From IMG/VR virus record IMGVR_UViG_2695420651_000024: DNA of 42,748 nt; one strand, given 5' to 3'. Position numbers and translations under genes: made by a program. This stretch comes from a virus (taxonomy: Duplodnaviria; Heunggongvirae; Uroviricota; Caudoviricetes). The notes below the pieces were generated by a model. That model was not told the origin of the DNA. It did not search any database and worked only from the letters and a program-made list of their open reading frames with translations. Shown piece by piece: positions 1 through 42,748 of this stretch. How positions within the stretch are numbered: position 1 is the first letter of the stretch; each line of letters begins with the position of its first letter.

Positions 1-332
1 CCGCCAACAGGCTGGCTGAAATGCAACGGTGCGGCTTTTTCTGCTGAAGAATACCCGGAACTGGCAAAGGCTTACCCGACCAATAAATTGCCTGATTTAC
101 GCGGTGAATTTATTCGTGGCTGGGATGACGGTCGCGGGATTGATACTGGTCGCGCTTTGCTTAATTGGCAGCCACACACAATTTTGGACCATGCACACTA
201 TATGGAATTATGGACAGGGGACGGACTCGCCGCAGGAAGTGCACGGGAAGGAGTAAACCCAGGAATACTGGCTACATACGGTGACGGGGGAATAGTTAAA
301 ACGGACGAACCCGGTCTTAATGTGCCTTCCTC
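1..332. repeat. Inverted repeat, left copy (reverse complement of 3185..3516); runs to the window edge so the true length is unknown
   Basis: Bases 1..36 are the exact reverse complement of 3481..3516. The 75-aa shadow ORFs 29..256(+) and 3261..3488(-) are identical. Identity ends after ggtcttaatgtgccttcc at 332/3185. Confidence 0.85.
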
Positions 333-384
333 ACTACGAGCTCTCGTAGTGTTAAACGTTATGGTGAAATTAGTGAAAATGTAG
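1..384 (+). CDS. Tail fibre protein, C-terminal tail-collar domain (5' end outside window)
   Basis: Frame open from base 1: [48 protein letters not shown]...HTILDHAHY, identical to the C-terminal part of the 3160..3933 fibre. Followed by a tfa gene. Confidence 0.6.
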   Translation, partial: PPTGWLKCNGAAFSAEEYPELAKAYPTNKLPDLRGEFIRGWDDGRGIDTGRALLNWQPHTILDHAHYMELWTGDGLAAGSAREGVNPGILATYGDGGIVKTDEPGLNVPSSLRALVVLNVMVKLVKM

Positions 385-436
385 GTACAGAAACTCGTCC
401 TCGTAACATCGCTTTTAATTATATCGTAAGGGCCGC

Positions 437-1042
437 ATGATGAATAAAGCTGTATTAAATAGCGAACTCATCACCACAAAGGCGGGAGACATTACCGTTT
501 ACAATTATGATGGTGAGACACGGGAATATATTTCCACATCAACTGAATATCTTGCTGTGGGTGTCGGTATCCCGGCATGTTCCTGTTTAGATGCTCCTGG
601 CTCATATAAAGCTGGTTATGCAATTTGCCGTTCTGCAGATTTTAACTCATGGGAATATGTGCCAGACCATCGCGGTGAAACGGTCTATAGCACTGAAACA
701 GGAGAATCAAAAGAAATCACAGCTCCGGGTGATTACCCTGAAAATACAACCACTATCGCTCCATTAACGCCATACGATAAATGGGATGGTGAGAAATGGG
801 TGACCGATACTGAGGCACAGCATAGCGCAGCAGTCGAAGCGGCAGAAGCACAGCGTCAGTCACTGATTGATGCTGCAATGGCTTCCATTAGTCTGATTCA
901 ACTGAAATTACAGGCCGGGCGGAAGCTGACGCAGGCAGAAACAACCCGGCTTAACGCTGTGCTGGATTACATTGACGCGGTGACTGCAACAGATACCAGC
1001 ACCGCGCCGGATGTCATCTGGCCTGAACTGCCGGAGGCGTAG
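437..1042 (+). CDS. tfa: Tail fibre assembly protein (Tfa)
   Basis: 201 aa; typical Tfa C-terminus ...TAPDVIWPELPEA; directly downstream of the fibre gene. Confidence 0.75.
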   Translation: MMNKAVLNSELITTKAGDITVYNYDGETREYISTSTEYLAVGVGIPACSCLDAPGSYKAGYAICRSADFNSWEYVPDHRGETVYSTETGESKEITAPGDYPENTTTIAPLTPYDKWDGEKWVTDTEAQHSAAVEAAEAQRQSLIDAAMASISLIQLKLQAGRKLTQAETTRLNAVLDYIDAVTATDTSTAPDVIWPELPEA

Positions 1043-1433
1043 GCCATTCAATATCTGGAGCACTGGAGATATCAACCAGTTCCAGTGCGTCCAGATAATC
1101 CAGCCATAAATTATATTGTTCCAGCTCGTCACCTTTCAGACGACCAATAGCGGCTTTACCAGGCCATTGCCTGCTATTCATGTGCTCGTTGGCTTCATTA
1201 ATAAGTTTTCCTTTTTTCAACTCTGCCAATGCAATAAGGTTTTCTTTTGATAAAGGTGGTTGCTCTGTCAAAACCGGATATCCCTCCTGATTGCTGACTA
1301 TTTTCATGCCATTATCCTGACCATCCAGTAGTGACAGCCATTCATCCGTGGTTATCTCAACAGCATCTGAAGGTGCTTTATTTAAATCGGTAAAAAAACC
1401 ATTTTCTTTTTGTGAATAGAAGTATCTGTCCAT
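1014..1433 (-). CDS. Alternative tail fibre assembly protein (Tfa') of the invertible cassette
   Basis: 139 aa; C-terminal SSAPDIEWPTPP motif; convergent with tfa and overlapping its 3' end, as in e14 tfaP/tfaE and Mu U/U'. Confidence 0.7.
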   Translation of the reverse strand: MDRYFYSQKENGFFTDLNKAPSDAVEITTDEWLSLLDGQDNGMKIVSNQEGYPVLTEQPPLSKENLIALAELKKGKLINEANEHMNSRQWPGKAAIGRLKGDELEQYNLWLDYLDALELVDISSAPDIEWPTPPAVQAR

Positions 1434-1436
1434 TTA

Positions 1437-1784
1437 TCAATCTCCAAAAGCAATCCAGTAAGCAAAAGGATTTACTCCTTGCTCAGTCACAGATGACATC
1501 AGGGAAAATTGCGATGGTGAAACAGGTAATGCTGCAAAACTAACCATTGTTGACACACCTGACCGTGCATTATCGTACGATGCAACAACACAATAATTGG
1601 TATTGCTGAAAGATATCGGCAGGGTGATATTTACAGGTGAGCCTAATGGCCCTGATGCTGATATTCCCATTTGAATGATGGTTCCATCAGGCAATTTTCT
1701 CCAGCGATTAGAACTCGGATTTCTTTTCCAGGCTGACATATCCGGTATCTGATTTTCTCCTGTACCCACATCCCTTTTCGCCGC
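1437..1784 (-). CDS. Promoterless alternative tail-fibre C-terminal segment (Sv'-like), expressed only after inversion
   Basis: Open frame (track ORF 1437..1838) with no plausible own start; it begins at the crossover site next to the invertase, the arrangement seen in Mu G / e14 P segments. Confidence 0.5.
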   Translation of the reverse strand, partial: AAKRDVGTGENQIPDMSAWKRNPSSNRWRKLPDGTIIQMGISASGPLGSPVNITLPISFSNTNYCVVASYDNARSGVSTMVSFAALPVSPSQFSLMSSVTEQGVNPFAYWIAFGD

Positions 1785-1810
1785 TTCTCCCAAACCAACG
1801 TTTATGAAAA
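1785..1810. other. Putative Pin/Gin/Hin-type inversion crossover site
   Basis: TTCTCCCAAACCAACGTTTATGAAAA matches the hix/gix/pix pattern TTnnnnAAAACCnnGGTTTnnnnAA at most core positions; lies between the Sv' segment and the invertase gene. Confidence 0.45.
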
Positions 1811-1865
1811 TGCAGAGATAACGGGCAACTGGCATCATCTCCGGTTTTTATTCAGGGGATCCATC

Positions 1866-2419
1866 ATGCTTATTGGCTATGTACGCGTATCAACAAATGA
1901 CCAGAACACCGATCTGCAACGTAATGCACTGAACTGCGCGGGATGTGAGCGGTTTTTTGAGGATAAAATCAGTGGCACTAAGTCCGACAGACCGGGGCTT
2001 AAAAAACTGCTCAGGACACTATCGGCAGGAGACACTCTGGTTGTCTGGAAGCTGGACAGGTTGGGGCGCAGTATGCGGCATCTTGTTACGCTGATAGAAG
2101 AGTTGCGTCAGCGTGGCGTGAATTTCCGAAGCCTGACTGACAGTATTGATACCAGCACCCCAATGGCCGTTTCTTTTTTCATGTCATGGGTGCCCTGGCT
2201 GAAATGGAGCGTGAACTGATTGTTGAACGAACAAAAGCTGGACTGGAAGCTGCTCGCGCACAGGGACGAATTGGCGGTCGCCGTCCCAAACTTTCATCAG
2301 AACAATGGGCGCAGGCCGGGCGACTAATTGCATCAGGCGTTCCTCGCCAGAATGTGGAGATCATCTATGATGTTGGCGTATCGACTTTGTATAAGAAGTT
2401 TCCGGTCGGAGATAAATGA
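1866..2419 (+). pseudogene. pin: Serine DNA invertase (Pin/Gin/Hin family) disrupted by a frameshift
   Basis: N-terminal MLIGYVRVSTNDQNTDLQRNAL...VVWKLDRLGRSM (catalytic Ser region) in one frame (1866..2219); C-terminal GALAEMERELIVERTKAG...GRIGGRRPKL...YDVGVSTLYKK in the next frame (2186..2419). The switch is at about 2163..2170, within ccaatggccgtttc. Confidence 0.8.
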
Positions 2420-2499
2420 AACCGTAGCACGTCGTATGCAAGAACGTGCCACGGCTGGCTGATAAGCTTGTAAAAATATTGAACAGGGAGTGGAGCATT

Positions 2500-3147
2500 C
2501 TATGAAGCTAATTTGTTTAATTTCATTTGTAGTGACTTTACTTCTTGGTCGATAATGTCGAATCCCTTATTGACAGCATCTCTTAGCTCTGCATCAATAT
2601 TTTTTATCCCTTGAGCATAATCTACCATTACATTTATTTTTGCATCATGTAATCTCTTATACATGGTTTTATCTTTGTTATTGTCTGCCATGCCAATAAG
2701 GATTTTTTCATAATCCTCAATGAGTTTGTTGTTTCCTTTAAATGATTGTATTAATGAGCGTGAATATGTGTATATGTTAATTATTGAGTCTCTAGCAGAA
2801 TCATTTAGTTTTGCAATGACATTCGCATTTTGCTCATAGAATGTGAAATTATCATCCCCTACAGGGAATGTGAGAATCAACATTTGTCCCGGTTTTATAT
2901 TATCAATGTGTGTTTTCATCCTTTTATTATATAAATTGATTAGGGTGAAAACTTCTCCCTTAACTCCTTTTAATACTGAAAGTTGTAATTCAAGGGATTC
3001 TCTTTCTGTCTCTACTTTAGACAGCTTAGCTTGTTGGGTAACTCCTTTTAGGGTAAACCATCCGCCAATAAGAGTACCAACTAGAGCTGTGAGGGAGGAG
3101 GATAACCATCCAGGTATGCTATTTAAAAGATTACTAAATTCACTCAT
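2500..3147 (-). CDS. Hypothetical membrane-anchored coiled-coil protein on a low-GC insert
   Basis: 215 aa; one N-terminal TM helix (LLNSIPGWLSSSLTALVGTLIGGWFTL) then K/E/N-rich helical region; DNA visibly AT-rich compared with flanks; sits where a tfa gene would normally follow the fibre gene. Confidence 0.5.
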   Translation of the reverse strand: MSEFSNLLNSIPGWLSSSLTALVGTLIGGWFTLKGVTQQAKLSKVETERESLELQLSVLKGVKGEVFTLINLYNKRMKTHIDNIKPGQMLILTFPVGDDNFTFYEQNANVIAKLNDSARDSIINIYTYSRSLIQSFKGNNKLIEDYEKILIGMADNNKDKTMYKRLHDAKINVMVDYAQGIKNIDAELRDAVNKGFDIIDQEVKSLQMKLNKLAS

Positions 3148-3159
3148 TATAAGTACTCG

Positions 3160-3933
3160 CTAATATTGAACGATATATATATCAGAGGAAGGCACATTAA
3201 GACCGGGTTCGTCCGTTTTAACTATTCCCCCGTCACCGTATGTAGCCAGTATTCCTGGGTTTACTCCTTCCCGTGCACTTCCTGCGGCGAGTCCGTCCCC
3301 TGTCCATAATTCCATATAGTGTGCATGGTCCAAAATTGTGTGTGGCTGCCAATTAAGCAAAGCGCGACCAGTATCAATCCCGCGACCGTCATCCCAGCCA
3401 CGAATAAATTCACCGCGTAAATCAGGCAATTTATTGGTCGGGTAAGCCTTTGCCAGTTCCGGGTATTCTTCAGCAGAAAAAGCCGCACCGTTGCATTTCA
3501 GCCAGCCTGTTGGCGGTGTGACTGAAGGCCACGGAACAGGCACACCAACAGGTAATGCAGAACCTTCTCCCAAACCAAGGTTTTCGAGAGCCGTTTGCAC
3601 AGTGCCATCCGATTTGATATCGCCAAACGGATTCTTGCGGCTCAGGTATTCAACAGCAAACCCCGATCCCAGCAATTCAACAAAACCGGGCAGATCACCA
3701 TTATCAAGCACATCCCGTTGCGTTTTGTCACTTACAAACTGGGCCAGAGCTGCAGCAATAAAGCTGGCCTGTCGAATGGCTTTGTTCACCTGCGCACTGG
3801 ATGCTTTCCCTGCTGTAAATCCGGATAAAAGCGCAGGCAACGCTTCCCATTCCTCCTGCGACATAACATTGGCATTTCGATCAGTTGCAAACGCTTTAAA
3901 GTCATTTTTCGCCATCAGAGTAATACTCCCCAT
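3160..3933 (-). CDS. Tail fibre protein with tail-collar C-terminal domain
   Basis: 257 aa; last gene of the baseplate operon; C-terminal ~110 aa identical to the left-edge fibre fragment (inverted repeat). Confidence 0.7.
3185..3516. repeat. Inverted repeat, right copy (reverse complement of 1..332)
   Basis: See left copy; the identical sequence encodes the C-terminal domain of the 3160..3933 fibre. Confidence 0.85.
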
Positions 3934-4595
3934 GCTCCTACATCAAAACCACTGATGAATTCGTTATCCATATCAAAACCAAAAAATTTTGAGCCTTCCG
4001 ATGGGGTTTCCACCGAAGGAGTTTCAATGCCCCCCGCCCATACCCCGGCGGCTTTTACTGTGAGATACCCCTGTTTAATTGCCGCAATTAACTCACGCGA
4101 TACATCTGAAATATCAGTATCAGGAAAGACCCAGACCGATATCGTCATGTCCTGGTTATCGACTATCTGCATTCGCAGCCCGGATCCTGCTGTTGCCGCG
4201 TCAAGAATTGCCGGAAGCGAATCATTCCGTCCGTCCCAGTTATTAATCGCAATCTTCGCTTTAAGGATGACACGATAAGTTTCATCGCTGAGGTACATGT
4301 ATCCGGAATCAGGATCGTATGGTCCCTGCCATACACCCTGATCATATCCAAGCCCGTCGGTATCCCAGCTGAAATAAACACCTGAGATAGGCTGGCTGAC
4401 AACACGGCTACGTCCGATCCACAATCCCAGAATGTCAAGTTGCACACCAACCGCAGAGTCAATATCAAATGCAGTAATCAGCCCTCTGGTGGCCGCCGCA
4501 ACATCAATAAGCGGCCGGGTCATCAGATCAACATGTGCAAGAAATTTAGGTTTGGTGGCGTGGTAGTTCGTGATTAGTTCGGTGTATTTGCTCAT
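3915..4595 (-). CDS. Baseplate/tail-fibre-proximal protein (Mu gp48-like, DUF2313-type)
   Basis: 226 aa; immediately upstream of the fibre and downstream of the baseplate J-like gene; family assignment from memory. Confidence 0.5.
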
Positions 4596-5791
4596 GACTC
4601 CACCGTTATAACGATATTTTCCGGGGTACAGGACGCAGATTCGTTGTATCTGATATCAATGTTTGATGACGACAAAGCCCCCGGAGATTTCCCAATCGTC
4701 AGTTCCTGAATATCGTAATAGCGTGCATTCCCGCCACTCACCACGCCAAGATTCGCCGGTGAGTAAATGCGACTTAAAAGGACCGAATCACCAATCATCA
4801 GACTATTGATATAGTCGGAAATAGCCTGCTGGATCTGCTGCCCTATCTGTGAGGTATAACCCGTAAAAACTTTTAATTTAATCCGGGCATAAACAGGCAC
4901 ATCACTGGAACGCGAGAATTTGATTACATGGGGATTGCCGTATTTATCCGGAACCGTAACGGATGTTGTACCGTGAGTGGCTGTCCCCTGGCCTTTATTC
5001 CCTCTGATAGCCTGAGCAATATCCATCACATCACCGCCATCCACAATTACAGCAACAGAGTGTGGCGGTAACCCGTTACCGTCCTCCGAACCAGTATCGT
5101 TTTCATAGAGTTTGTGGCGGGTTACACCGGTAACATTAGAAACAGCACCATCCAGTGCTTCAAATGGGGTTATTGATGGCAACGCAACACTTTGCGACTG
5201 GCGGATACGTAACTCCGCATCAGTTTCTGCCGGAGAGCCAACAGTAGCCGCAGCAGGATTAGTTACCGAAACCCAGCCACGGGTTGGCGTATTAATTTCA
5301 GTGATAGTTCCAGCCAGCGCCGCCACTGCACCACTGACGGAACATGTTGCGGTCGCCATCACTGTACCATCCACGCCGACCACCACTGAAGCAGGCAAAC
5401 GCCATATCACACTATTACTGTCTTTCACGCTGCCATTAATGATGGTTGTTCCGGCAGTTCCTGTAAGAAGCAAATCAACCGTAGAATTCGTCGCGCCTTT
5501 ACGTGAAATACCATTTATTTTCACGTTACTGGTCAGTGCGGCCCCATAGCCGGTTGCCGGTGAAAAACAGTTGTAGACAGTTATCGCAGTATTATTGGCA
5601 TCATGAATCGCCAGCGCCATCAGAGCCACCATCTGGCCGTCTTTACTATCCGGTTCGAGGTAGGCATCACTGCCATAAATCTGCTGAAAATAGCTAATCA
5701 GGGTGCTGAGTATCGTCTGATAATCAGGCGCACTGATCCCCTCCGCGGTTACCTTTGCAGATAAACCGAGAGAATCAAGGTTCAGAGCCAT
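4592..5791 (-). CDS. Baseplate J-like protein (Mu gp47-like)
   Basis: 399 aa; position and size in a conserved gp45-46-47-48 order. Confidence 0.6.
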   Translation of the reverse strand: MALNLDSLGLSAKVTAEGISAPDYQTILSTLISYFQQIYGSDAYLEPDSKDGQMVALMALAIHDANNTAITVYNCFSPATGYGAALTSNVKINGISRKGATNSTVDLLLTGTAGTTIINGSVKDSNSVIWRLPASVVVGVDGTVMATATCSVSGAVAALAGTITEINTPTRGWVSVTNPAAATVGSPAETDAELRIRQSQSVALPSITPFEALDGAVSNVTGVTRHKLYENDTGSEDGNGLPPHSVAVIVDGGDVMDIAQAIRGNKGQGTATHGTTSVTVPDKYGNPHVIKFSRSSDVPVYARIKLKVFTGYTSQIGQQIQQAISDYINSLMIGDSVLLSRIYSPANLGVVSGGNARYYDIQELTIGKSPGALSSSNIDIRYNESASCTPENIVITVES

Positions 5792-6144
5792 TACGCCTCC
5801 GATTTAACAGTCGTTATTCCATAGAGAGTGTCGATTTCAGCGGAAAACATGACACGTCGGGTCGTGGTATCCACCGTCGTATTGAAAGAGAGGATTGATT
5901 TAACGCCCCGCGTTTCGAGGATGCGCTTACGGATCGCCAGGTTGTAGGTTTCCGGCTTCTGCTTACCGAGCACAGACTGGATCCACGGGGTCCCTTCGGT
6001 GGTGTCGAGAAACCATTGCCCATACCACAATTCAAATCGCGTTTTTACCGCCTGCGCCACGGCCTCCGGTGAGTTAATCAGCCAGGTGTCATCACCGCTG
6101 CCAAAGGTGTAATCGCCATCGGCGTCTTCACGTCTGTATCGCAT
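5791..6144 (-). CDS. Baseplate protein, GpW/gp25-like (Mu gp46-like)
   Basis: 117 aa; start overlaps the stop of the upstream gene; conserved position. Confidence 0.5.
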   Translation of the reverse strand: MRYRREDADGDYTFGSGDDTWLINSPEAVAQAVKTRFELWYGQWFLDTTEGTPWIQSVLGKQKPETYNLAIRKRILETRGVKSILSFNTTVDTTTRRVMFSAEIDTLYGITTVKSEA

Positions 6145-26407: not shown

Positions 26408-28563
26408 CAAACCTTGCATTTTTTCCCCCCAATTCGCCTTTGGGCACGCTTATACCCGCAATTTTGCAAAACATTACTAATTCGCATTTCTTCGCGTTTT
26501 CCGATGCGGTCAGGATTTAGCCCAATCGCATCACGCAAAACATCACTTGCGCGTAAAAATTCGCAATTTCGCGGAAGTTCATTAGTCATCAGGTCGGGCG
26601 TGTCGAGCCATTTCTCTACCGTTTCAAGCCAAGCATCCTTGATGGTGTACTGTTCATGGACACTCGCTGCCAGTTGTTCAGCCTCACGGAACTGGATACC
26701 CCCCAGACGCTGAAACACCTCACGAGCCTCAGCCCAAAGTAAAAGGAGATCTCTTTTTATCGCTTTCACGTCGACTTTCGACACTTCCACGGGGAGCCAG
26801 CGACGGTTACCAGTCTTGTCCGCAAGGAATTCGTCCTCATTAGTGGTACCAACGAACACCAGGCGACGAGGAAACTGGGTGGCGAACTCCCGGTATTTCG
26901 GGATCCAGTTTTCGTGAGTACGCGTCACAAACGCTTTGATTGACTCCAGCTCTTTGGTATTAAGCCCGCGCAGTTCACCAATCTCTGCCACCAGCCGACC
27001 ACGCATTTTTCGAGCGAGATCATCGTCTTTTTCGGCAAAAGAGATTTCAGTAAAAAACGCAGGATCAGGGCTCAGTGCCTCCACTCCGGAAGACTTACCG
27101 CAGCCCTGCGGACCAACGAGGATCGGCACCATATCCGCTTTGATGCCTGGCTCCAGTACTCGCCCCGCCAACGCGGTCCACATGTACATAGACACCGCAC
27201 GGGTATAAGGCGTGTCGGCGGTACCGAAGTGCGTATGGTAGAAACATTCGATGCGCGGCACGCCATCCCACTCCAGTCCGTTCAGCCAGGTGATCGCTGA
27301 ATCGAATGGTTGTTCATCGGCTGCAAGTAACACCACATCGCGAATAAGTTCACGGCCAACAGGTTTAAATCCCCGCTTTTCCATCGTGATGCGCAGGCGC
27401 GCATAATCCGCATCGGTGAATGCCCGCCATTGTCCGGATCCTGCCGGGGCAAACATGATTTCGTCGCGGAACTGGTCAAAGCGAATATCGATGTCCACAA
27501 AATCAGAGCGTACTACTGCTTTGGCTGCATTGCTGATGGTTGCCTCGATACGCCCCCATTTATCACGCTCGAAAGCAGGCAGCGGTAAAGGTTCCGCCAC
27601 TTCGATGCTGGTCAGATCTTCGAAATCGTCGTTGCGGATCCCGATGGCATTCAGGAAATCTCCGTCATCACGATGCGCGCAACTGGCATGCAGGCATTTA
27701 AAATGCCCCTGCTCAAAGCCTGCGGTTCCCGCAGGAAAATAAACTGTGCTTGTTGGATCGCCTCCGCTACTGTGGCCGTCTTCAAACGGACAGCGGATAT
27801 ATCGTTCACCGTTTGCGCCATCCAGCAGCGTCCAGCCATTGGCATCAAGATATTCAGCTGTATCATCCGTCGCGCCGGGCGTGAATGCTGAACGGTCGCG
27901 CATCTTCGTGTTGCCCGCTTCGGTGGTTACCGACACAGGGAGTTGTTCAGCCAGGCGCTGCCACAGCGTTTCAAGCTGCTCACCTGTAATAGCCGGAGGT
28001 TCATCCGGCAAACCACCGTCCCATTCAATACGCGCGCCGCTGCTGTGCGTACCACAGGCAACGAACTGCTGCCCGTTCGCCAGCAACTCGATAATGCCCA
28101 TATCCCCCGCCAGGCGATGGATACGCTTACGGAAATCACCATCAACGGCCAGCAGATACAGACACTTATTACTGTTTGCTCGCCAGCGTCGCGGCGGCGA
28201 CTCACCCAGAAGTTGCACAAGTGTTTTGCGAATATCTGCCTGAATGTCTTCATCTTCGCTATCGCAGTCCAGCGCCAGCCAGCCATGGCCTGTACGCACG
28301 CAGATGCCATAATCCGGTTCATTCGACCAGCGGGCAAAATCATGCTCAGTAACAACATGCCCGGTCCATTGAGCAATACCTGTGACCTGGCGGTCCCGGT
28401 TATAGCGACTCGGCGTCTTACCCAACGCTTTCAATTTACTATCAGGGGATATGGTCGCACTGGGGTTACATACAACTGGGAGAAGATGAGCAGTCCGCCC
28501 CAATACCAGGTCGAAATGAAACCACTCATCAGGCGTAGCTCCCCATGGTTTGCTATCGGACAT
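26377..28563 (-). CDS. Replication primase-helicase (primase-polymerase N-domain plus D5/P4-alpha-like NTPase)
   Basis: 728 aa; Walker A VGPQGCGKSS; N-terminal prim-pol-like region; first large gene after the Cro-like gene. Confidence 0.75.
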   Translation of the reverse strand: MSDSKPWGATPDEWFHFDLVLGRTAHLLPVVCNPSATISPDSKLKALGKTPSRYNRDRQVTGIAQWTGHVVTEHDFARWSNEPDYGICVRTGHGWLALDCDSEDEDIQADIRKTLVQLLGESPPRRWRANSNKCLYLLAVDGDFRKRIHRLAGDMGIIELLANGQQFVACGTHSSGARIEWDGGLPDEPPAITGEQLETLWQRLAEQLPVSVTTEAGNTKMRDRSAFTPGATDDTAEYLDANGWTLLDGANGERYIRCPFEDGHSSGGDPTSTVYFPAGTAGFEQGHFKCLHASCAHRDDGDFLNAIGIRNDDFEDLTSIEVAEPLPLPAFERDKWGRIEATISNAAKAVVRSDFVDIDIRFDQFRDEIMFAPAGSGQWRAFTDADYARLRITMEKRGFKPVGRELIRDVVLLAADEQPFDSAITWLNGLEWDGVPRIECFYHTHFGTADTPYTRAVSMYMWTALAGRVLEPGIKADMVPILVGPQGCGKSSGVEALSPDPAFFTEISFAEKDDDLARKMRGRLVAEIGELRGLNTKELESIKAFVTRTHENWIPKYREFATQFPRRLVFVGTTNEDEFLADKTGNRRWLPVEVSKVDVKAIKRDLLLLWAEAREVFQRLGGIQFREAEQLAASVHEQYTIKDAWLETVEKWLDTPDLMTNELPRNCEFLRASDVLRDAIGLNPDRIGKREEMRISNVLQNCGYKRAQRRIGGKKCKVWEPLEPRGTT

Positions 28564-28566
28564 GGG

Positions 28567-28767
28567 TTACACCTTTTGTCTAGCTGTCACTTCCTGAAAA
28601 AGTTTTTCTATCGCACGTACTGTAGAAAAGCGAGGGTCAGAATGAACCCCGGTAAGAAGCCGACTAATAGAAGACTGCTTCACGCCTGCAATTTCGGCAA
28701 TTTGGTTTTGGGTATACCCTGAATCAATCAAGCTTTTGACCATCTCTTGTGGTGTTAGTCCGGACAT
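28567..28767 (-). CDS. cro: Cro-like HTH regulator
   Basis: 66 aa; XRE-type HTH (YTQNQIAEIAGVKQSSISRLL); divergent from the CI-like repressor and heading the minus-strand operon. Confidence 0.6.
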   Translation of the reverse strand: MSGLTPQEMVKSLIDSGYTQNQIAEIAGVKQSSISRLLTGVHSDPRFSTVRAIEKLFQEVTARQKV

Positions 28768-28908
28768 ATTTAAGTCTCCACTTTCGTCTATAGCGCAAAT
28801 TTATACGAAAACGGATTACTCAGCAATACAGCAATTCTATGTCATCCTAGATTAAAATATCCGATAACGCATAATCACCGTCCCTGTATACAACATGGAT
28901 GAATCCAA
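28768..28908. promoter_or_regulatory. Divergent repressor/cro promoter-operator region
   Basis: 141-bp gap between divergent cro-like and cI-like genes; contains GATAACGCATAATC (28863..28876), a motif repeated at 29683..29719. Confidence 0.45.
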
Positions 28909-29583
28909 ATGATTGATACTACCGATATCCTTTCTCAAAACATCAAGTACCTGATGGACAAAGCCAAGATAAGCTCGATAACTGAGCTGGCACGTCGGTT
29001 ACAGCTGAACCAACCAACGCTACACAGGCTGGTATCAGGAGAGGTGAAAGATCCGAAATACGCAACGTTAAAGCAGATCGCCGACTACTTCCACGTGTCA
29101 CCAATAGACTTGGCAGAAAGGAGCCTTCAAGAAATGGAGAAAGAGGACGCGACAGGTATAAAAACGTATATTTCTCTTAGGTTTAATAAAGTACCTGTTT
29201 TGGGAAACACTCAGCTAGGCGTTGGAGGACTTTGGAGCGACACCCAATATTCAGTAGGTAGCAGTGATGGTTTCATATACTGGCCGACAAAGGATGAAGA
29301 TGCATACGCCCTGAAATGTGTTGGTGATTCAATGATGCCTAGAATCAAAGAGGGGGAGTTCGTAATCGTCGAACCCAACCACGACTACACTCCTGGTGAT
29401 GAAGTACTTGTGGTTACCCGGGAAGGTGAGGTCATGGTTAAAACCTTCTTGTTCGAACGCGATGGCCTGTTCCATCTAATGTCTGTAAATGAAGATCATC
29501 CACCAGTCAGAGTACCACGCGAAAACATTGAAAAAATCCATTACGTGGCGGGGATCGCCAAATCCGCGCTACGTATGTACTAA
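28909..29583 (+). CDS. cI: CI-like prophage repressor (HTH plus S24/LexA-type autopeptidase domain)
   Basis: 224 aa; N-terminal HTH (ITELARRLQLNQPTLHRLVSG); C-terminal LKCVGDSMMPRIKEGEFVIVEP (Ser) and a downstream Lys, as in LexA/CI. Confidence 0.8.
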   Translation: MIDTTDILSQNIKYLMDKAKISSITELARRLQLNQPTLHRLVSGEVKDPKYATLKQIADYFHVSPIDLAERSLQEMEKEDATGIKTYISLRFNKVPVLGNTQLGVGGLWSDTQYSVGSSDGFIYWPTKDEDAYALKCVGDSMMPRIKEGEFVIVEPNHDYTPGDEVLVVTREGEVMVKTFLFERDGLFHLMSVNEDHPPVRVPRENIEKIHYVAGIAKSALRMY

Positions 29584-29613
29584 CCTTTACAGTCTGATAA
29601 CTTACTTCTGATC

Positions 29614-29646
29614 AAACCGCTCTCCACAAGGGCGGTTTTCTTATTT
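29614..29646 (+). terminator. Putative intrinsic terminator after the repressor gene
   Basis: AAACCGC...GCGGTTT stem followed by TCTTATTT; the loop is long, so only moderate support. Confidence 0.4.
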
Positions 29647-29667
29647 GCAAAATAATTCATTTTCGTA

Positions 29668-29696
29668 TTGACACAAAATCCCATAACGCATATAAA
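29668..29696 (+). promoter_or_regulatory. Near-consensus sigma70 promoter (TTGACA, 17 nt, TATAAA), overlapped by operator-like repeats
   Basis: -35 TTGACA at 29668..29673, 17-nt spacer, -10 TATAAA at 29691..29696. ATAACGCATATAAA overlaps the -10; the near-palindrome CGCATAATTAATGCG lies at 29705..29719. Confidence 0.5.
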
Positions 29697-30001
29697 TACG
29701 ATATCGCATAATTAATGCGTTTTTTAATACTGGCTCTTTAACAAACTGAACCGCGTGACAGGTAAGCCGCAGTACTCCTGGCAAAACGAAATAGCACCCG
29801 ATGGGATCGAGGTAAGCGCCGAGTCCGTATGCGTACGGTAAGCGTAGAGGACAACACCGCGACAAACTGATAAGTCACGCAAGTTGAAACGCCCCGACGA
29901 TGGGGCGCTTAGTTCCTTTTGGGGTGGGGTGAAGATCAGTCCATTGAGTCAATCCGAAGTTCAGCATCTACCACTACACCACCACCAAAGAGAACTGCTA
30001 A

Positions 30002-30526
30002 TCATCTGGCAGGTTGTAACGGTGCAGGAGTTTTGCCACTGACTTCTATATTTCGGGGAAATTTATATTCAGCGGAGCATTTATGACACTTGAGAATTTT
30101 ATAAGCGGCATTAGAAGTATGGTATTGAAGTATAGACTTCATACCCGACTCATAGCATGTAGTACAAAGATAATGAGGCTTGAACTCAGGATCGTCAGTA
30201 GGCTTCAGTACATAGACCACCGTATTGGTAATCGGGTGGTACATTTCATAGTTCATTTTCTCACTATCCCAATCCTGTTTCTTTTCCAGAAGGGATTCGA
30301 GTTCAACAATGCGCTGTTTAGCTTCGTTCAAAAGCTCCGTTAGTGCGAATTGTCCAGTACGCGCATCAATTAGTTTATCAAGTAGATCGATAGTTTTACT
30401 TTTAACATTGTAATCCACCTGCAACGCATTAACTTCTTTTGCTAAATCAACAGCACCTTTCAAAGCACCACCAGCACTAGTGGCCGCCTCAGTTATACGC
30501 CGTACAAGTCCTTTTTCTTCAGACAT
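30002..30526 (-). CDS. Hypothetical protein with N-terminal coiled coil and C-terminal C4 zinc ribbon
   Basis: 174 aa; CTTC...(x20)...CHKC; GC lower than neighbours; sits in the immunity region beside cI, antisense to the strong plus-strand promoter. Confidence 0.5.
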   Translation of the reverse strand: MSEEKGLVRRITEAATSAGGALKGAVDLAKEVNALQVDYNVKSKTIDLLDKLIDARTGQFALTELLNEAKQRIVELESLLEKKQDWDSEKMNYEMYHPITNTVVYVLKPTDDPEFKPHYLCTTCYESGMKSILQYHTSNAAYKILKCHKCSAEYKFPRNIEVSGKTPAPLQPAR

Positions 30527-30665
30527 CTTAATTCTCTCTAAAACTATAGGGGTAAAGAGATATTAGCCGAATTCTCGCTGTAGGGGTACAGAGAGAGCCA
30601 TCTCGTCTGACGTGGTTAAAAGCAGGCATTCGCTGACATCCAAGTAATTGCTGTGTGTAGCCTTT

Positions 30666-30691
30666 GCCCGCCTCAAGTGACGGGCTTTTTT
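30666..30691 (+). terminator. Putative intrinsic terminator upstream of the early operon
   Basis: GCCCG-(10-nt loop)-CGGGC followed by TTTTTT. Confidence 0.4.
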
Positions 30692-30750
30692 ATGTCTGAA
30701 AGCGCACTCGCAACAGCGTGCTCCCCGATATGAAAAAAGGAATACAACCG

Positions 30751-30900
30751 ATGAAACCTGAATACCTCCATCGACTGACGGGGCGCGATGTTCTCCGTTA
30801 TCGCCGTAAAAACTTCGATTTGATGACCGGTCTGGCCGTTGCCACTGCGCTCGGTCTGATCATCACTTTCATTCTCCTTGTAGCGAGGACCACAGTATGA
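30751..30900 (+). CDS. Small membrane protein (49 aa), first gene of the early operon
   Basis: ATG at 30751 preceded by AAGGA; C-terminal TM (LAVATALGLIITFILLV); stop overlaps the next start (ATGA). Confidence 0.35.
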   Translation: MKPEYLHRLTGRDVLRYRRKNFDLMTGLAVATALGLIITFILLVARTTV

Positions 30901-31799
30901 GTTTAGAAACCAGTCTCGAACTTAATAATCAACTTCTGGCACAACATAATGCGCTGCTTGAACGTCTTATCCGCACAATGGCATCAGGCATTGTTATGCA
31001 TCCTGACACGATTTCACGAGTGCAGGAATGTCGGGATACAGCAACTGAAACTGAAAATATGTCAGCGGCAATGACACTGGATGATCTGGAGTTCAGCGAC
31101 GTTATCGCACTGGCTGGTTTCTACCCGGTAGCCACCCCTATCACAGAAGACATGCTGCAACGTGCTGTTGCCTACCGTGATGCTGAAGGCGATAAACGAG
31201 TAGTTCAGATTGATGCTCTCGACAGCGCATTGCAGGGCGTCAAACGAGCCAGGGCGCTGCTTAAACCTGCTCTCCTGGACCTGTCCCGTAACATCCTTAA
31301 GTTCTGGGACGACCTGCCAACCATCGGCGAGCGACGTGTTTTTGCCGAGCAGCTACTTGATGCACCTGCGGATGGGCGTGATGAAGTTAAGCCGAAAAAG
31401 GCCAGTAACAAAGATGGAGAACGCACGGGGCCGTTTTACGTCAAAAATGTATCCGGCACAGCAGCCAGTGAACTCCACACCTTACGCAAGTTGAACGAGA
31501 TGCTGAAAAAAGGCCATATCGAGATCAACCGTGTTGAGTACCTTCAGCTGCAAGAAGAATTTGCACGCAGAGACGCAGCAAATTCCAGCCAGAATCATGA
31601 CGCCAAAGATGACCATACAATTGATTTCGCGGCACTACGCAAACAAGCTGAAGGGTTGATCCTCCAGTTAGCAAAAGGGGGTTACCGGGCAGAAGCTATT
31701 GCAATTCTGGAAAAACAGGGAGCCAGGAAACTTGGTGAAGTAACGGATGAAAATCTCGCTGAAGTAATCACCCTGGCTGAAAAAGCACTGGAGGGTTAA
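30897..31799 (+). CDS. Hypothetical early protein (300 aa)
   Basis: ORF with coupled start; no recognisable motif. Confidence 0.45.
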
Positions 31800-31801
31800 T
31801 C

Positions 31802-33103
31802 ATGCCAGACGTTCATGCACAACTTTCTCCATCATCAGCGCATCGATGGATGCGCTGCCCAGGAAGTCTGGCGCTGGAGGCCACACAACCGGATAAAGAA
31901 ACAACTTTTGCAATCGAGGGCACTGCAGCGCACGCGCTTGCTGAAAAAGTTCTACGAAACAGGCAAAGCTACCCGGAACACTACGCCGGATGCAATGTTT
32001 CTATGTTTCTCAGCTCATACCCCCTTCGCGAAAATCCTAATGATACATCTGGCCCACAGGTGGATGATGAAATGGTCGAAGCCGTTGGCCGGTATGTTGA
32101 TACGGTCTGGACTCTTGCACAGAATAATGAACTATTGGTTGAACAACGTGTTGATTTCTCACATATAACGGGTGTGGAAGAATCTTTCGGAACTGCCGAC
32201 GGCATAATCATTGCTGGTAGCGAATTACAAATCCACGACCTGAAATATGGCAAAGGCGTCCGCATTGATGCAGAACAAAATGAGCAACTACAACTGTATG
32301 CTCTGGGTGCGCTCGAACAATTCAGCATGCTGTATGACTTTGAGACTGTAAGATTATTTATTCACCAGCCAAGGCTCAACCACGTTTCAGAATGGTCGTT
32401 AACCGTACAGGAACTTCAGTCTTTCGGTGAACGGGCACTGGAGGCCGCAACCAGTGCGATCCTTGTTCTCAATATTGCTGAATGCGAAGGCATTGAGACA
32501 CTACCGCTGGAAAACTTCATACCTGGAGAAAAACAGTGCCGCTTCTGTAAAGCAAAAGCTATTTGCACTGCCCAGAAAATGCAGCATTTACAAACAGCGG
32601 CCAGCGATTTTGAAGATCTGACAAAGCCTGTCAGCGAAATAATCTCCAATGCCAGCGCACGTGTACCTCTGTTAACCATTGAGCAGCTTGCGGAGATCTA
32701 TAGCCAGGCCGACTTTATTGAATCCTGGCTAAAGGCAGTACGAGACCGGGTTCACAATGAACTCAATGCCGGACATCCGGTACCGGGGTTTAAACTGGTA
32801 ACAGGAAAACAAGGTAACCGGGCCTGGAGTGATGAAGAGGCAGCTCGCGCACTTCTGAAGGACCAGTTCAGGTACAAAACTGAAGAAGTATTCGACTTTA
32901 AACTTATTAGCCCCACAAAAGCCGAAAAACTTATCAAAAAGGCCAGTCCGCGCCGTTGGTCAAAAGTCGAGGCACTGATAACACGAGCTGATGGTAAACC
33001 CACCATCGTTCCCGAGTCAGACCCACGCCCCGCACTCAATATCAACCCTGTAAATGATTTCGACGACGTATCCGACGATACGCTAACCGCAGACCTCATC
33101 TGA
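31802..33103 (+). CDS. PD-(D/E)XK-type nuclease, DUF2800-like
   Basis: 433 aa; N-terminal [15 protein letters not shown]... typical of the DUF2800 family that accompanies phage PolA modules; RBS GAGGG. Confidence 0.6.
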
Positions 33104-33118
33104 TTTAAGGAAATACCC

Positions 33119-33667
33119 ATGAAACTGAAGCTGAACAATGTTCGTCTGGCCTTCCCGTCTCTGTTTGAAGCTAAAACTGTAAACGGCGAAGGCGATCCAC
33201 GTTTCTCCGCAGTATTTTTAATGTCACCCAAACACCCACAACTGGAAGAAATCCGTAAAGCTATGAAGCAGGTAGCGAAGGAAAAATGGGGAGAGAAGTG
33301 GGAGCCCATTTATAACCAACTGGAGAAAAAACTCAATCTGTGCCTGCATGATGGTGATGAAAAAGCAGAGTATGAAGGCTTCCCCGGCAATTTCTTCCTG
33401 AATGCTGCTAACAAAGCGCGCCCAGCTGTTCTTGATCGCGATCGTTCGCCACTTATTCAGGCTGATGGACGTCCCTATGCAGGGTGCTATGTAAACGCCG
33501 TTATCGATATCTGGGCACAGGACAATAATTTCGGTAAACGCATTAATGCCTCACTAGGCGGAGTCCAGTTCCTGCGAGACGGCGATGCATTCGCTGGCGG
33601 CGGAGTGGCAAGCGCTGACGATTTCGACGATATCAGCGAAGGTGCTGATGCTGAAGCACTGATTTAA
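33119..33667 (+). CDS. DUF2815-like protein (putative ssDNA-binding)
   Basis: 182 aa; MKLKLNNVRLAFPSLFEAK... N-terminus; acidic C-terminal tail (DDFDDISEGADAEALI) as in SSBs. Confidence 0.55.
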   Translation: MKLKLNNVRLAFPSLFEAKTVNGEGDPRFSAVFLMSPKHPQLEEIRKAMKQVAKEKWGEKWEPIYNQLEKKLNLCLHDGDEKAEYEGFPGNFFLNAANKARPAVLDRDRSPLIQADGRPYAGCYVNAVIDIWAQDNNFGKRINASLGGVQFLRDGDAFAGGGVASADDFDDISEGADAEALI

Positions 33668-33719
33668 CCCTACTTCATAGACGCCCGGTTAAATACCGGG
33701 CTGCTGATTAGGCGTATAA

Positions 33720-34349
33720 TCACTCAGGAATCTTAATCTTCCTCAATTCTTTATTTAGTTCACAGATCTTCTTCTTAGACGGGAAAGTATCATACATCCA
33801 AAAACCAACAGTCTCTAAAACTATTGTCATAACCATATACACAAGATAATTTAAAAGGCCTTCATTTTGCCCTATGGAAATAATGCAGATAATAGAAAAA
33901 AGGATAAACAGCACAAAACACAGAAAGGAAAACAGACGACTAATAATAAATAAAAAACCTGAAAAATTAACATTGATGAAAAACACTCCGTTATCTTTCT
34001 CTATATAATTCTGAAGCTTAATCACCTGATTTATATACTGTCTTTTTTCTAATCTATTGCAAATGTAAATAACATCACTTCGGTTATAAGAAGATTGCAA
34101 TTTCAGCGCATCACGAATAATTTTATCATTTATTCTTTTTTCTATGGCACTCTTATCCTCCTTATCCAGATAACGTTCATACTTAACTAAATATAAAATT
34201 AACTTCTTGACATATTTAGGCTCTTTATACTTATAATTAAAAATGATCTTTCTTATCCAGACTCCCATAACAATCAAACATGAAAAAATATATCCAGCTA
34301 TTTTCTCCAGATGCTCTGTATGGTCAATCAAGTATTGGATCATATGCAT
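33720..34349 (-). CDS. Hypothetical polytopic membrane protein on a low-GC insert, opposite strand to the early operon
   Basis: 209 aa; TM near the N-terminus, K/E/Y-rich cytoplasmic region, then a long hydrophobic stretch (FSGFLFIISRLFSFLCFVLFILFSIICIISIG) and a further TM; very AT-rich DNA. Confidence 0.5.
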   Translation of the reverse strand: MHMIQYLIDHTEHLEKIAGYIFSCLIVMGVWIRKIIFNYKYKEPKYVKKLILYLVKYERYLDKEDKSAIEKRINDKIIRDALKLQSSYNRSDVIYICNRLEKRQYINQVIKLQNYIEKDNGVFFINVNFSGFLFIISRLFSFLCFVLFILFSIICIISIGQNEGLLNYLVYMVMTIVLETVGFWMYDTFPSKKKICELNKELRKIKIPE

Positions 34350-34395
34350 AATTAATCTTTTAATCAGTTAATAGAATAAAAACCAAGGTAAACAC

Positions 34396-36459: not shown

Positions 36460-36464
36460 CTCCT

Positions 36465-36680
36465 ATGTCATTTAAATACCGGGACAATCCACTTTATTAC
36501 AGGGCTGCAAGGGAGGCTTTGCGACTTGAACAATCCGGCGAATATGACCGGGCAGCGAAGGTCTGGGCAAAAGCCAACCGCGAATCACATCACGAACTGA
36601 ATCAGGAATGGAGTGAACGCAGATCTGATTTTTGCCTGATGCAGAATATGCGTGAAAAGCGTAAGGCGGTCGAAGAATGA
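36465..36680 (+). CDS. Small hypothetical protein (71 aa)
   Basis: ORF only. Confidence 0.35.
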   Translation: MSFKYRDNPLYYRAAREALRLEQSGEYDRAAKVWAKANRESHHELNQEWSERRSDFCLMQNMREKRKAVEE

Positions 36681-36976
36681 TCGTTTACGTTGCCGGGCCG
36701 ATGAGCGGTTACGAGCAATTTAACCGCCCGGCCTTTCATTCCGCAGCAAAGAGGCTAACGGACAAGGGATATGTTGTGCTTAACCCCGCAACTTTACCCG
36801 ATGGTTTGACACAGGCTCAGTACATGGACATCTGCCTCGCAATGCTTCGCTGTGCCGATACGATTTATATGCTCAAAGAGTGGGAGTACTCTGCCGGCGC
36901 ACGTGCAGAAAACGCGTTGGCAGAGAAACTGGTATTGAATGTGCTTTTTGAAGAGTGGGATTCAGATGGCCTATGA
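36677..36976 (+). CDS. DUF4406-like protein (nucleoside deoxyribosyltransferase-like fold)
   Basis: 99 aa; MIVYVAGPMSGYEQFNRPAFH... N-terminus typical of this family, from memory. Confidence 0.5.
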   Translation: MIVYVAGPMSGYEQFNRPAFHSAAKRLTDKGYVVLNPATLPDGLTQAQYMDICLAMLRCADTIYMLKEWEYSAGARAENALAEKLVLNVLFEEWDSDGL

Positions 36977-38245: not shown

Positions 38246-38247
38246 TA

Positions 38248-39177: not shown

Positions 39178-39287
39178 TTTATTGTTTATCCTTACATTTA
39201 ACCCTGTGGGTTACCTTCGCTGTGAATAGTAAAAATTGCCAGGCCAACTGGTGCGACCTCTAACTAGCAAAAATTTGCGAGATTATA

Positions 39288-42478: not shown

Positions 42479-42748
<270 letters not shown>

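What the first reader, a model, noticed from the sequence alone, without database searches (positions are those of the whole stretch)
1..3516. Two convergent tail-fibre genes share an identical >=332-bp C-terminal segment as a perfect inverted repeat around the invertase cassette
Bases 1..332 are the exact reverse complement of 3185..3516, and the repeat runs off the window edge. It encodes the tail-collar receptor-binding tip of both the left-edge fibre (plus strand) and the prophage's own fibre (3160..3933, minus strand). The ~2.85 kb between the copies holds tfa, tfa', the spare fibre tip, pin and a low-GC membrane gene. Such long perfect repeats are substrates for RecA-dependent inversion, which would swap which fibre gene is followed by the tfa chaperone and which by the membrane gene. 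That would be a second, invertase-independent switch on top of the Pin system, or a record of recent tip exchange between two phages.
Basis: seen in the sequence. Interest (0 to 1): 0.55.

Follow-up and report, generated by a model that had tools for sequence, protein, structure and literature searches.

The report
Private inverted duplication in prophage fibre
The perfect 332-bp inverted repeat is real in the sequence, but it is a one-off rearrangement (or assembly product) of an already-known, decaying E. coli prophage that leaves both tail-fibre copies truncated, not a second host-range switch.

Summary
Bases 1-332 are the exact reverse complement of 3185-3516. The window is the prophage that sits between yfhH and yfhL in E. 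coli O103:H2 str. 12009 and relatives (99.9% identical).

In those genomes the order is baseplate, fibre (constant part, crossover site, variable part), tfa, tfa', spare tip, pin, a 215-aa gene, phage end. The variable part is single copy. The window equals rc(reference 3144249-3147439) followed by reference 3147109 onward. So the 2.85-kb tail of the prophage is flipped and 332 bp of the fibre gene is duplicated in inverted orientation.

The new junction (3184/3185) and a 7-nt deletion at 338/339 are in none of 5,426 complete E. coli genomes, nor in the other collections scanned. Both lesions lie in one 27-nt quasi-palindrome.

Both fibre copies lose the conserved C-terminus. Pin is a pseudogene, the portal gene has a stop codon, and the two crossover sites are now direct repeats.

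Best reading: a recent, strain-private inversion/duplication of template-switch or staggered-break type. An assembly artefact is not excluded. RecA could flip the segment, but neither orientation gives an intact fibre. Low interest.

The parts
1..332 (+). Left arm of the inverted repeat: a copy of codons 134-244 of the fibre gene (variable part, Sv), in frame from base 1. It has no start codon, no N-terminal baseplate-anchor part and no crossover site within the window.
332..351 (+). Quasi-palindrome CACTACGAG..CTCGTAGTG. The repeat's inner boundary (332|333) is at the first base of its stem. The 7-nt deletion (AGCTATT, between 338 and 339) removes its loop.
   Evidence: alignment; the reference hairpin folds at -8.4 kcal/mol, z = -3.5, with the stem starting at the base that equals window 332.
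333..439 (+). 3' end of the fibre gene, contiguous with the left arm as in the reference but frameshifted by the 7-nt deletion. Translation stops at 382-384 instead of the natural TGA at 437-439, so ...GEISENVGTETRPRNIAFNYIVRAA is lost.
440..1042 (+). tfa (200 aa), the tail-fibre assembly chaperone that belongs to this Sv tip.
   Evidence: Caudo_TAP, E = 2e-33; annotated tfaE.
1014..1433 (-). tfa' (139 aa), the chaperone of the alternative tip.
   Evidence: Caudo_TAP, E = 1e-25.
1437..1838 (-). Sv', the promoterless alternative fibre tip (133-aa ORF).
   Evidence: Gp53-like_C; in strain 2011C-4251 it is fused to the constant part.
1784..1803 (.). Crossover site beside pin (CTTCTCCCAAACCAACGTTT; encodes NVGLGE at the start of Sv').
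   Evidence: D2.
1866..2419 (+). pin, a serine DNA invertase pseudogene. One frameshift lies between resolvase profile positions 112 and 117 (about 2166-2190).
   Evidence: (annotated 'frameshifted' in relatives).
2500..3147 (-). 215-aa, 31% GC cargo gene with an N-terminal hydrophobic helix and unknown function. It now lies 12 nt downstream of the truncated fibre gene on the same strand.
   Evidence: no Pfam, PADLOC or PHROG hit.
3148..3184 (-). The last 37 nt of reference-collinear sequence upstream of the 215-aa gene, ending in an (AT)5 run. The breakpoint is 3184|3185, a blunt join with no microhomology.
3185..3516 (-). Right arm of the inverted repeat: the resident copy of fibre codons 134-244, contiguous with the crossover site, the constant part and the baseplate genes.
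3160..3915 (-). Truncated fibre gene of the prophage: 244 native residues plus DIYIVQY*. It lacks the last 37 residues. The start is taken as in the reference annotation; the ORF listing extends the ORF to 3933.
3564..3583 (.). Crossover site at the constant/variable boundary of the fibre gene (CTTCTCCCAAACCAAGGTTT; encodes NLGLGE). It is now a direct repeat of the site at 1784-1803.
   Evidence: D2.

Best explanation
The window shows a known E. coli myovirus-type prophage, integrated into the 5' end of yfhL, that carries an ordinary Pin-type invertible tail-fibre cassette. In this one strain the cassette has suffered a private structural mutation.

A 332-bp tract of the fibre's variable part was copied in inverted orientation to a site 37 nt upstream of the 215-aa cargo gene, 2.85 kb away. 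Equivalently, the terminal 3.19 kb was inverted with a one-sided inverted duplication.

The most likely origin is a replication template switch or a staggered break and rejoin, nucleated at a hairpin-forming quasi-palindrome in the fibre gene. The duplicated tract stops at the first base of that hairpin stem, and the other copy lost the hairpin loop (7 nt).

Consequences:
- Both fibre copies lack the conserved C-terminal segment and are presumably non-functional.
- The two crossover sites are now direct repeats, so Pin-type inversion is locked.
- The 215-aa gene is separated from its native upstream region.

The perfect 332-bp arms can be flipped by RecA (or may simply be unresolved by the assembler), but flipping only exchanges two defective 3' ends.

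Shown: the repeat, the single-copy ancestral order, the uniqueness of the junction and the deletion, the hairpin coincidence, and the truncations. Inferred: the mutational mechanism, the loss of function, that the repeat ends near base 1, and that RecA can flip it.
For: - The repeat is perfect.
- The window decomposes into rc(NC_013353.1 3144249-3147439) plus 3147109-3186672. The first block has 0 mismatches and a single 7-nt gap. The second has 27 mismatches and 1 gap in 39.6 kb.
- The canonical single-copy order is seen in O103:H2 12009, in 2011C-4251 and in the other genomes that carry the same cassette. None of the ten contexts returned shows a fibre gene followed directly by the 215-aa gene.
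- No place in 5,426 complete E. coli genomes spans 3184/3185 or covers 80% or more of 1-4000 collinearly.
- All 171 genomes that cover 270-410 lack the 7-nt deletion; the best identity, 95.3%, is the 7-nt gap.
- Neither lesion is found in the GTDB species representatives, IMG/VR or JGI metagenomes.
- The repeat boundary and the deletion fall in one quasi-palindrome that folds significantly better than shuffles.
- The fibre C-terminus aligns with the C-terminus of the T4 gp37 tip...NIAFNYIVR(L/A)A, and is missing from both copies.
- The window ends exactly on the yfhL stop codon, so it was cut at feature boundaries. Base 1 is in frame with the fibre fragment but is not a start codon. It therefore marks a partial or pseudogene start or a contig start, either of which puts the outer end of the repeat near base 1.
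- Inversions flanked by inverted duplications of a few hundred bp are a described class (PMC1885836). Quasi-palindromes are template-switch hotspots in E. coli (PMC7202029).
Against: - The junction 3184/3185 is blunt, with no microhomology. That is unusual for template switching or alternative end joining in E. coli, though compatible with the staggered-break route.
- The other new junction lies left of base 1 and cannot be seen.
- No reads are available, so a chimeric assembly cannot be ruled out.
- The source record was not found in any collection, so there is no independent copy of the arrangement.
Confidence: 0.6

Rival explanations
1. Assembly or library artefact. The true genome has the reference arrangement, or a mixed population. 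The contig, which may start at base 1, was extended through a chimeric junction or around a loop in the assembly graph, which would create the apparent inverted duplication.
For: - The repeat runs exactly to the first base of the window, and the window is cut at feature or contig boundaries.
- The arms are 100% identical, and bases 1-3184 have zero substitutions against the reference.
- The junction is blunt and is unique among all collections searched.
- The odd proteins it creates are not on record anywhere.
Against: - An assembler needs reads that span 3184/3185, and low-coverage chimeras are normally pruned.
- The junction and an independent 7-nt deletion both sit in one hairpin-forming quasi-palindrome. 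Assembly software has no reason to break there, while DNA metabolism does. (Polymerase-made library chimeras could also favour hairpins.)
- A contig that starts exactly at the outer edge of a true inverted repeat is also what a correct graph traversal of a real repeat would give.
Confidence: 0.27
2. The long repeat is a RecA-dependent, invertase-independent switch layered on the Pin system. It toggles which fibre copy is followed by tfa, or toggles the crossover sites between inverted (switch-competent) and direct (locked).
For: - A perfect 332-bp inverted repeat 2.85 kb apart is a good substrate for homologous inversion.
- Flipping would restore the inverted orientation of the crossover sites at 1784 and 3564 and the reference order fibre-tfa.
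- Pin homologues can act in trans on another prophage's segment (PMC12529663). Both orientations of the site-bounded segment occur among near-identical prophages that share the frameshifted pin.
Against: - The arrangement is not conserved: it is absent from 5,426 complete genomes.
- Both 3' ends are defective, so either orientation yields a truncated fibre.
- The prophage's pin and portal genes are broken, so there is no virion whose host range could be switched.
Confidence: 0.05
3. The left arm belongs to a complete second fibre gene. This would be either a large palindromic duplication of the prophage's tail module or a second, related prophage abutting this one. The shared tip would then record exchange between two phages.
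For: The repeat runs off the window edge and base 1 is in frame. E. coli genomes often hold several prophages with related tfa/pin modules (median 2 places per genome).
Against: - Bases 1-3184 are collinear and substitution-free with the same prophage's own fibre-tfa-...-215-aa gene block.
- Close relatives have one copy of this tip (places_in_record 1).
- The chromosome must still reach yfhH on the left.
- A palindrome with multi-kb arms would be unstable in E. coli (my own knowledge of SbcCD-dependent palindrome instability).
Confidence: 0.06

Closest known systems
Pin/Gin/Cin (Din-family) invertible tail-fibre cassettes: the e14 P segment, the Mu G segment and the same cassette in the yfhL prophage of E. 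coli O103:H2 12009
   Same: - The same genes in the same internal order: constant part, crossover site, Sv, tfa, tfa', Sv', crossover site, serine invertase.
- The crossover sites lie inside the fibre reading frame (N-L/V-G-L-G-E).
- The block 1-3184 is identical to 12009 apart from 7 nt.
- Both orientations of the site-bounded segment are seen among relatives.
- Trans-acting Pin is documented for e14 (PMC12529663; PMC4272514).
   Different: Here the whole cassette plus pin and the cargo gene is flipped relative to the constant part, at breakpoints that are not crossover sites. The two sites are therefore direct repeats, Sv is duplicated, and both Sv copies are truncated.
Phage P1 C segment (about 0.6-kb inverted repeats inside the cix sites; from my own knowledge, not checked in a paper here)
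   Same: A long inverted repeat made of fibre-coding sequence flanks an invertible fibre cassette served by a Din-family invertase.
   Different: - In P1 the repeats abut the crossover sites, encode the shared proximal part of both alternative tips, and are a conserved part of a working switch.
- Here the repeat starts 48 nt away from the crossover site and encodes one tip twice.
- One copy has no crossover site in view.
- The arrangement is private to one sequence and inactivating.
Inversions flanked by inverted duplications (staggered-break model, Ranz et al. 2007, PMC1885836) and template-switch rearrangements at quasi-palindromes in E. coli (PMC7202029)
   Same: - The ancestral state is single copy.
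- The derived state has the inverted segment bordered by an inverted duplicate of the breakpoint-adjacent sequence, of typical size (median 321 bp in Drosophila yakuba).
- One natural junction is kept and one is new.
- A breakpoint lies at a hairpin-forming quasi-palindrome.
   Different: The class is described mainly in Drosophila, and E. coli lacks canonical non-homologous end joining. The second new junction is not visible here, so the model is only half verified.

Membership tests
Din-family (Pin/Gin/Cin/Hin) invertible tail-fibre switch | An adjacent serine invertase gene (resolvase catalytic domain plus HTH_7) | tested here: inconclusive
   Both domains are present, but they are split over two frames (1866-2219 and 2186-2419). 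The gene is annotated 'frameshifted' in relatives. It is a pseudogene, so any inversion must rely on a Pin supplied in trans.
Din-family (Pin/Gin/Cin/Hin) invertible tail-fibre switch | Two crossover sites of about 26 bp with an AAACCNNGGTTT core, in INVERTED orientation, bounding the segment | tested here: not met
   The two sites, at 1784-1803 and 3564-3583, are direct repeats in the window (D2). They are inverted in the reference genomes. A third site could lie left of base 1, which is not testable here.
Din-family (Pin/Gin/Cin/Hin) invertible tail-fibre switch | A constant N-terminal fibre part fused alternately to two different C-terminal tips, each with its own tfa chaperone | tested here: met
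   Collar-type Sv with tfa, and Gp53-like Sv' with tfa'. Both fusions are observed in relatives (281-aa and 232-aa fibres).
Din-family (Pin/Gin/Cin/Hin) invertible tail-fibre switch | A Fis-dependent recombinational enhancer in the 5' part of the invertase gene | not tested
   No scan was made, and the tools offer no Fis or enhancer model.
P1 C-segment-type long inverted repeats | The repeats abut the crossover sites and encode the proximal part shared by two different tips | tested here: not met
   The right arm starts 48 nt distal to the site at 3564-3583. Both arms encode the same tip (codons 134-244). The other tip, Sv', shares no long repeat with them.
Inversion with flanking inverted duplication (staggered break or template switch) | The duplicated tract is single copy in the ancestral arrangement | tested here: met
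   There is one place per record in the closest genomes, and the canonical order is seen.
Inversion with flanking inverted duplication (staggered break or template switch) | One arm keeps its natural continuation and the other arm is joined to the far end of the inverted segment by a new junction | tested here: met
   332|333 is reference-like. 3184|3185 is new and absent from 5,426 genomes.
Inversion with flanking inverted duplication (staggered break or template switch) | A second new junction joins the outer end of the duplicated arm to the sequence that formerly adjoined the inverted segment (the 500-bp phage end next to yfhH) | not testable with these tools
   It lies left of base 1, and the source record could not be found.
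Assembly artefact | No read support for the junction, and single-copy depth over the repeat | not testable with these tools
   No reads or assembly graph are available.

The most novel reading that the evidence does not exclude
The repeat extends at least 70 bp beyond base 1 and carries a third crossover site, or RecA flipping is frequent. Either would give a two-tier switch: flipping the 2.85-kb block converts the Pin sites between inverted (switchable) and direct (locked or deletion-prone), and moves the 215-aa membrane gene under late tail-operon transcription. That would be a 'switch of a switch' in a domesticated prophage remnant.
Probability: 0.05. Interest if true: 0.45.

Novelty: already known. 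Interest (0 to 1): 0.13.

Why it matters
It matters little for phage biology. The underlying system is the textbook Pin-type fibre switch in a prophage already present in published O103/O45 genomes, and the repeat is a private, inactivating lesion.

It has minor value in two ways:
- It is a clean bacterial example of an inversion or duplication whose breakpoint and an accompanying micro-deletion coincide with one quasi-palindrome.
- It is a caution for annotation and for assembly quality control. Perfect inverted repeats around invertible cassettes at a contig edge need read-level confirmation, and the orientation of the enclosed block may be arbitrary.

Tried and rejected
- Looked for the source or any second instance. 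I searched for the junction 3184/3185 and for the 7-nt-deletion sequence in the GTDB species representatives, IMG/VR and JGI metagenomes. Nothing was found.
- Looked up the exact 257-aa truncated fibre and the 127-aa left fragment. Neither is on record.
- Looked up the neighbouring DUF2612 protein with 10-kb flanks. It returned ten contexts. Those carrying this cassette had the canonical order, the others had different fibre modules, and none had the window's arrangement.
- Searched the phage collection. It gave only partial cassette matches (at most 39% coverage).
- Pin-mediated origin: rejected. The only crossover-site cores in 1-4000 are at 1792 and 3572, and neither is at a breakpoint.
- A second-phage donor of the tip: rejected. 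The closest genomes have a single copy, and there are zero substitutions against the prophage's own cassette.
- Breakpoint at the prophage end: rejected. The att core (...AATTGTGATATGTGTGAA, a remnant of the yfhL 5' end) lies about 500 bp further out.
- Promoter and terminator scans around the junction gave counts no higher than shuffles and said nothing about expression of the 215-aa gene.
- Pfam, PADLOC and PHROGs gave no hit for the 215-aa protein.
- Folding the 3184 breakpoint region showed no significant structure.


Full report
OBSERVATION

One search finds a single long inverted repeat in 1-6000. Its arms are 1-332 and 3185-3516, 332 nt, 100% complementary, with 2852 nt between them. 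The next longest inverted pair is 22 nt at 77%, so chance is not an issue.

- tfa, 440-1042 +, Caudo_TAP.
- tfa', 1014-1433 -, Caudo_TAP.
- A spare tip, 1437-1838 -, Gp53-like_C.
- pin, 1866-2419 +, Resolvase plus HTH_7, in two frames.
- A 215-aa ORF, 2500-3147 -, of about 31% GC.

To the right come the fibre gene (3160-3915 -, Collar domain), a DUF2612 wedge protein, baseplate J and the rest of a myovirus tail and head module.

WHERE THE WINDOW COMES FROM

Bases 24000-42748 match 34 complete E. coli genomes at 99.8-99.9% over their full length. In O103:H2 str. 12009 (NC_013353.1) the match is the prophage between yfhH and yfhL.

The window ends exactly on the stop codon of yfhL, so it was cut at annotated feature boundaries. 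Base 1 is in frame with the fibre fragment but is not a start codon, and it is not the end of a minus-strand gene. It is therefore either the start of a partial or pseudogene feature or the start of a contig. In either case the outer end of the repeat probably lies at or close to base 1. This is inference.

THE ANCESTRAL ARRANGEMENT

In 12009 the order is: baseplate genes, DUF2612, fibre (281 aa), tfaE, tfa' (opposite strand), Gp53-like tip (opposite strand), pinE (frameshifted), the 215-aa gene (opposite strand), about 500 bp of phage end, a remnant of the yfhL 5' end, then yfhH.

In strain 2011C-4251 the segment between the two crossover sites is in the other orientation, so the constant part is fused to the Gp53-like tip (232 aa). 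This is the classical Pin/Gin-type switch. The sites are CTTCTCCCAAACCAA(C/G)GTTT, at window 1784-1803 and 3564-3583 (D2). They lie inside the reading frames, encoding N-V/L-G-L-G-E.

Both orientations occur in prophages that share the same frameshifted pin. Inversion must therefore have been catalysed in trans or before the frameshift arose. Trans action by another prophage's Pin is documented for e14 (PMC12529663), and e14 phase variation is routinely seen in cultures (PMC4272514).

In the genomes that carry this cassette, the Collar-type tip is present once per prophage.

WHAT IS DIFFERENT IN THE WINDOW

A BLAST decomposition gives two blocks:
- Window 1-3184 equals the reverse complement of NC_013353.1 3144249-3147439, with 0 mismatches and one 7-nt gap.
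- Window 3185-42748 equals 3147109-3186672, with 27 mismatches and one 1-nt gap.

The two blocks overlap by about 332 nt in the reference, and that overlap is the repeat. So the terminal 3.19 kb of the prophage is inverted relative to the baseplate module, and the 332 nt next to one breakpoint are present twice, in inverted orientation.

The junction 332|333 is the natural continuation of the fibre gene. The junction 3184|3185 is new. It joins a point 37 nt upstream of the 215-aa gene's ATG, at the end of an (AT)5 run, to codon 244 of the fibre gene. The join is blunt, with no shared bases.

Six nucleotides beyond the repeat, the left copy lacks 7 nt (AGCTATT) that every other genome has.

UNIQUENESS

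- No place in 5,426 complete E. coli genomes covers 80% or more of 1-4000 collinearly.
- None spans 3184/3185.
- All 171 genomes that cover 270-410 have the 7 nt; the best identity, 95.3%, is the 7-nt gap.
- Exact-pattern scans of the GTDB species representatives, IMG/VR and JGI metagenomes found neither lesion.
- The odd proteins the lesions create are not on record.
- Ten genomic contexts of the adjacent DUF2612 protein were returned. Those with this cassette had the canonical order, and none had the window's arrangement.

THE HAIRPIN COINCIDENCE

In the reference, the sequence CACTACGAGCT-ATT-AGCTCTCGTAGTG forms a DNA hairpin of -8.4 kcal/mol (z = -3.5; 0 of 200 shuffles fold as well).

The first base of its stem is window base 332, the last base of the repeat. 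The 7-nt deletion in the other copy removes the loop and inner stem, between two AGCT direct repeats. Two independent lesions therefore map to one 27-nt quasi-palindrome.

Quasi-palindromes are known template-switch hotspots in E. coli (PMC7202029). Inversions bordered by inverted duplications of a few hundred bp are a described class, explained by staggered breaks (PMC1885836; median duplication 321 bp).

My preferred reconstruction is inference. A polymerase that had switched strands copied the fibre tract until it met the hairpin stem, then returned to its original template at the AT run. The result is a 332-bp inverted insertion 2.85 kb away. The enclosed block may since have been flipped by homologous recombination, or its orientation may simply be unresolved in the assembly. 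A staggered break with fill-in and blunt rejoining gives the same product and fits the blunt junction better.

CONSEQUENCES

The reference fibre is 281 aa. Its last residues...GEISENVGTETRPRNIAFNYIVRAA, align with the extreme C-terminus of the crystallised T4 gp37 receptor-binding tip...NIAFNYIVRLA (2XGF), and with a short tail fibre (9CUY). In gp37 the chain runs out along the needle and returns, so the C-terminal strand is part of the proximal collar or needle assembly. This point is from my own recollection of Bartual et al. 2010 and was not checked here.

- The right copy ends after residue 244 with seven foreign residues (DIYIVQY*).
- The left copy frameshifts after residue 247 and stops at 382-384.
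- Either orientation of the block therefore gives a truncated fibre.

The prophage is decaying in other ways too. Pin is a pseudogene. The portal gene (19793-21259 -) has a premature stop at codon 186, caused by the substitution at 20703.

Because the block is inverted, the two crossover sites are direct repeats. A Pin supplied in trans could at best delete 1804-3583, which would recreate a constant part-Sv'-tfa' gene. Din-family invertases strongly disfavour deletion (my own knowledge).

The 215-aa gene has lost all but 37 nt of its upstream region, including an unannotated upstream ORF of about 90-100 aa by my reading (an 88-aa gene is called there in one relative). It now sits 12 nt behind the truncated fibre gene on the same strand.

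The observation and the geometry are correct. A 332-bp perfect inverted repeat is a plausible RecA substrate.

The idea of a second, functional switch, or of tip exchange between two phages, is not supported:
- The duplicate derives from the prophage's own fibre.
- The arrangement is private to this one sequence.
- Both products are defective.

The artefact caveat stands. The repeat reaches the first base of a boundary-cut window, the arms are identical, the junction is blunt, and no second instance exists.

Against a pure software artefact, both lesions sit in a hairpin. Also, a contig that begins exactly at the outer edge of a genuine inverted repeat is the expected output of a correct graph traversal. 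I put a real private rearrangement at about 0.6, an artefact at about 0.27, and the remaining readings at about 0.05-0.06 each.

COMPARISON WITH KNOWN SYSTEMS

The cassette is a member of the Din-family invertible fibre switches in gene content and is identical to published genomes. In this isomer it fails two operating requirements: an intact invertase and inverted crossover sites.

It resembles the P1 C segment only superficially, in having long fibre-coding inverted repeats. In P1 the repeats abut the crossover sites and are part of a conserved, working design.

As a mutation it fits the class of inversions with a flanking inverted duplication, but only one of the two new junctions can be seen.

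VERDICT

This is a real feature of the sequence and ordinary in meaning: a private structural lesion, or an assembly product, in a known defective prophage. Interest is low.

Noticed in passing
window 19793-21259 (-), stop at 20702-20704: The portal gene (DUF1073, 488 aa in relatives) has a premature stop at codon 186. It is caused by a single substitution at 20703 (T here, C in O103:H2 12009). The prophage in this strain should be unable to build heads.
   Followed up: yes
window 1866-2419 (+); L001 9873-10426; L002 5318-5871: pin is frameshifted here and in the closest complete genomes, yet the site-bounded segment is found in both orientations among these near-identical prophages. This implies inversion by a Pin homologue from another prophage in trans, as shown for PinQ acting on e14, or inversion before the frameshift arose.
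   Followed up: partly
window 42488-42748; L003 about 1700-1752: The prophage integrates into the 5' end of yfhL and supplies a replacement N-terminus ([16 protein letters not shown]...). The displaced original start ([16 protein letters not shown]) remains as a remnant next to yfhH at the other prophage end. The shared core ...ATTGTGATATGTGTGAA is the likely att core.
   Followed up: partly
window 2500-3147 (-); L003 about 1950-2222; L006 14292-14558: The 215-aa, 31% GC cargo gene has an N-terminal hydrophobic helix and no Pfam, PADLOC or PHROG hit. In relatives it is preceded by a small ORF that RefSeq leaves unannotated (an 88-aa gene call in L006; about 100 aa by my reading of the 12009 sequence). 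The pair may be a two-gene moron or defence-like cassette at the prophage end. The rearrangement separates the two genes.
   Followed up: partly
window 1784-1803 and 3564-3583: The two Pin crossover sites are direct repeats in this arrangement. Site-specific recombination could only delete pin, the 215-aa gene and the truncated tip. The product would be an intact constant part-Sv'-tfa' fibre gene.
   Followed up: no
window 19614 versus L003 21538: The minor head protein gene, annotated as frameshifted in O103:H2 12009, lacks that extra T here and reads as an intact 257-aa ORF (19168-19941). Different members of this prophage lineage carry different inactivating mutations.
   Followed up: partly
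window 37507-42682: 17 of the 27 substitutions against O103:H2 12009 fall in the last 5.3 kb (methyltransferase, helicase, integrase, yfhL), including three adjacent ones at 42680-42682. This may be a recombination patch at the integrase end.
   Followed up: no
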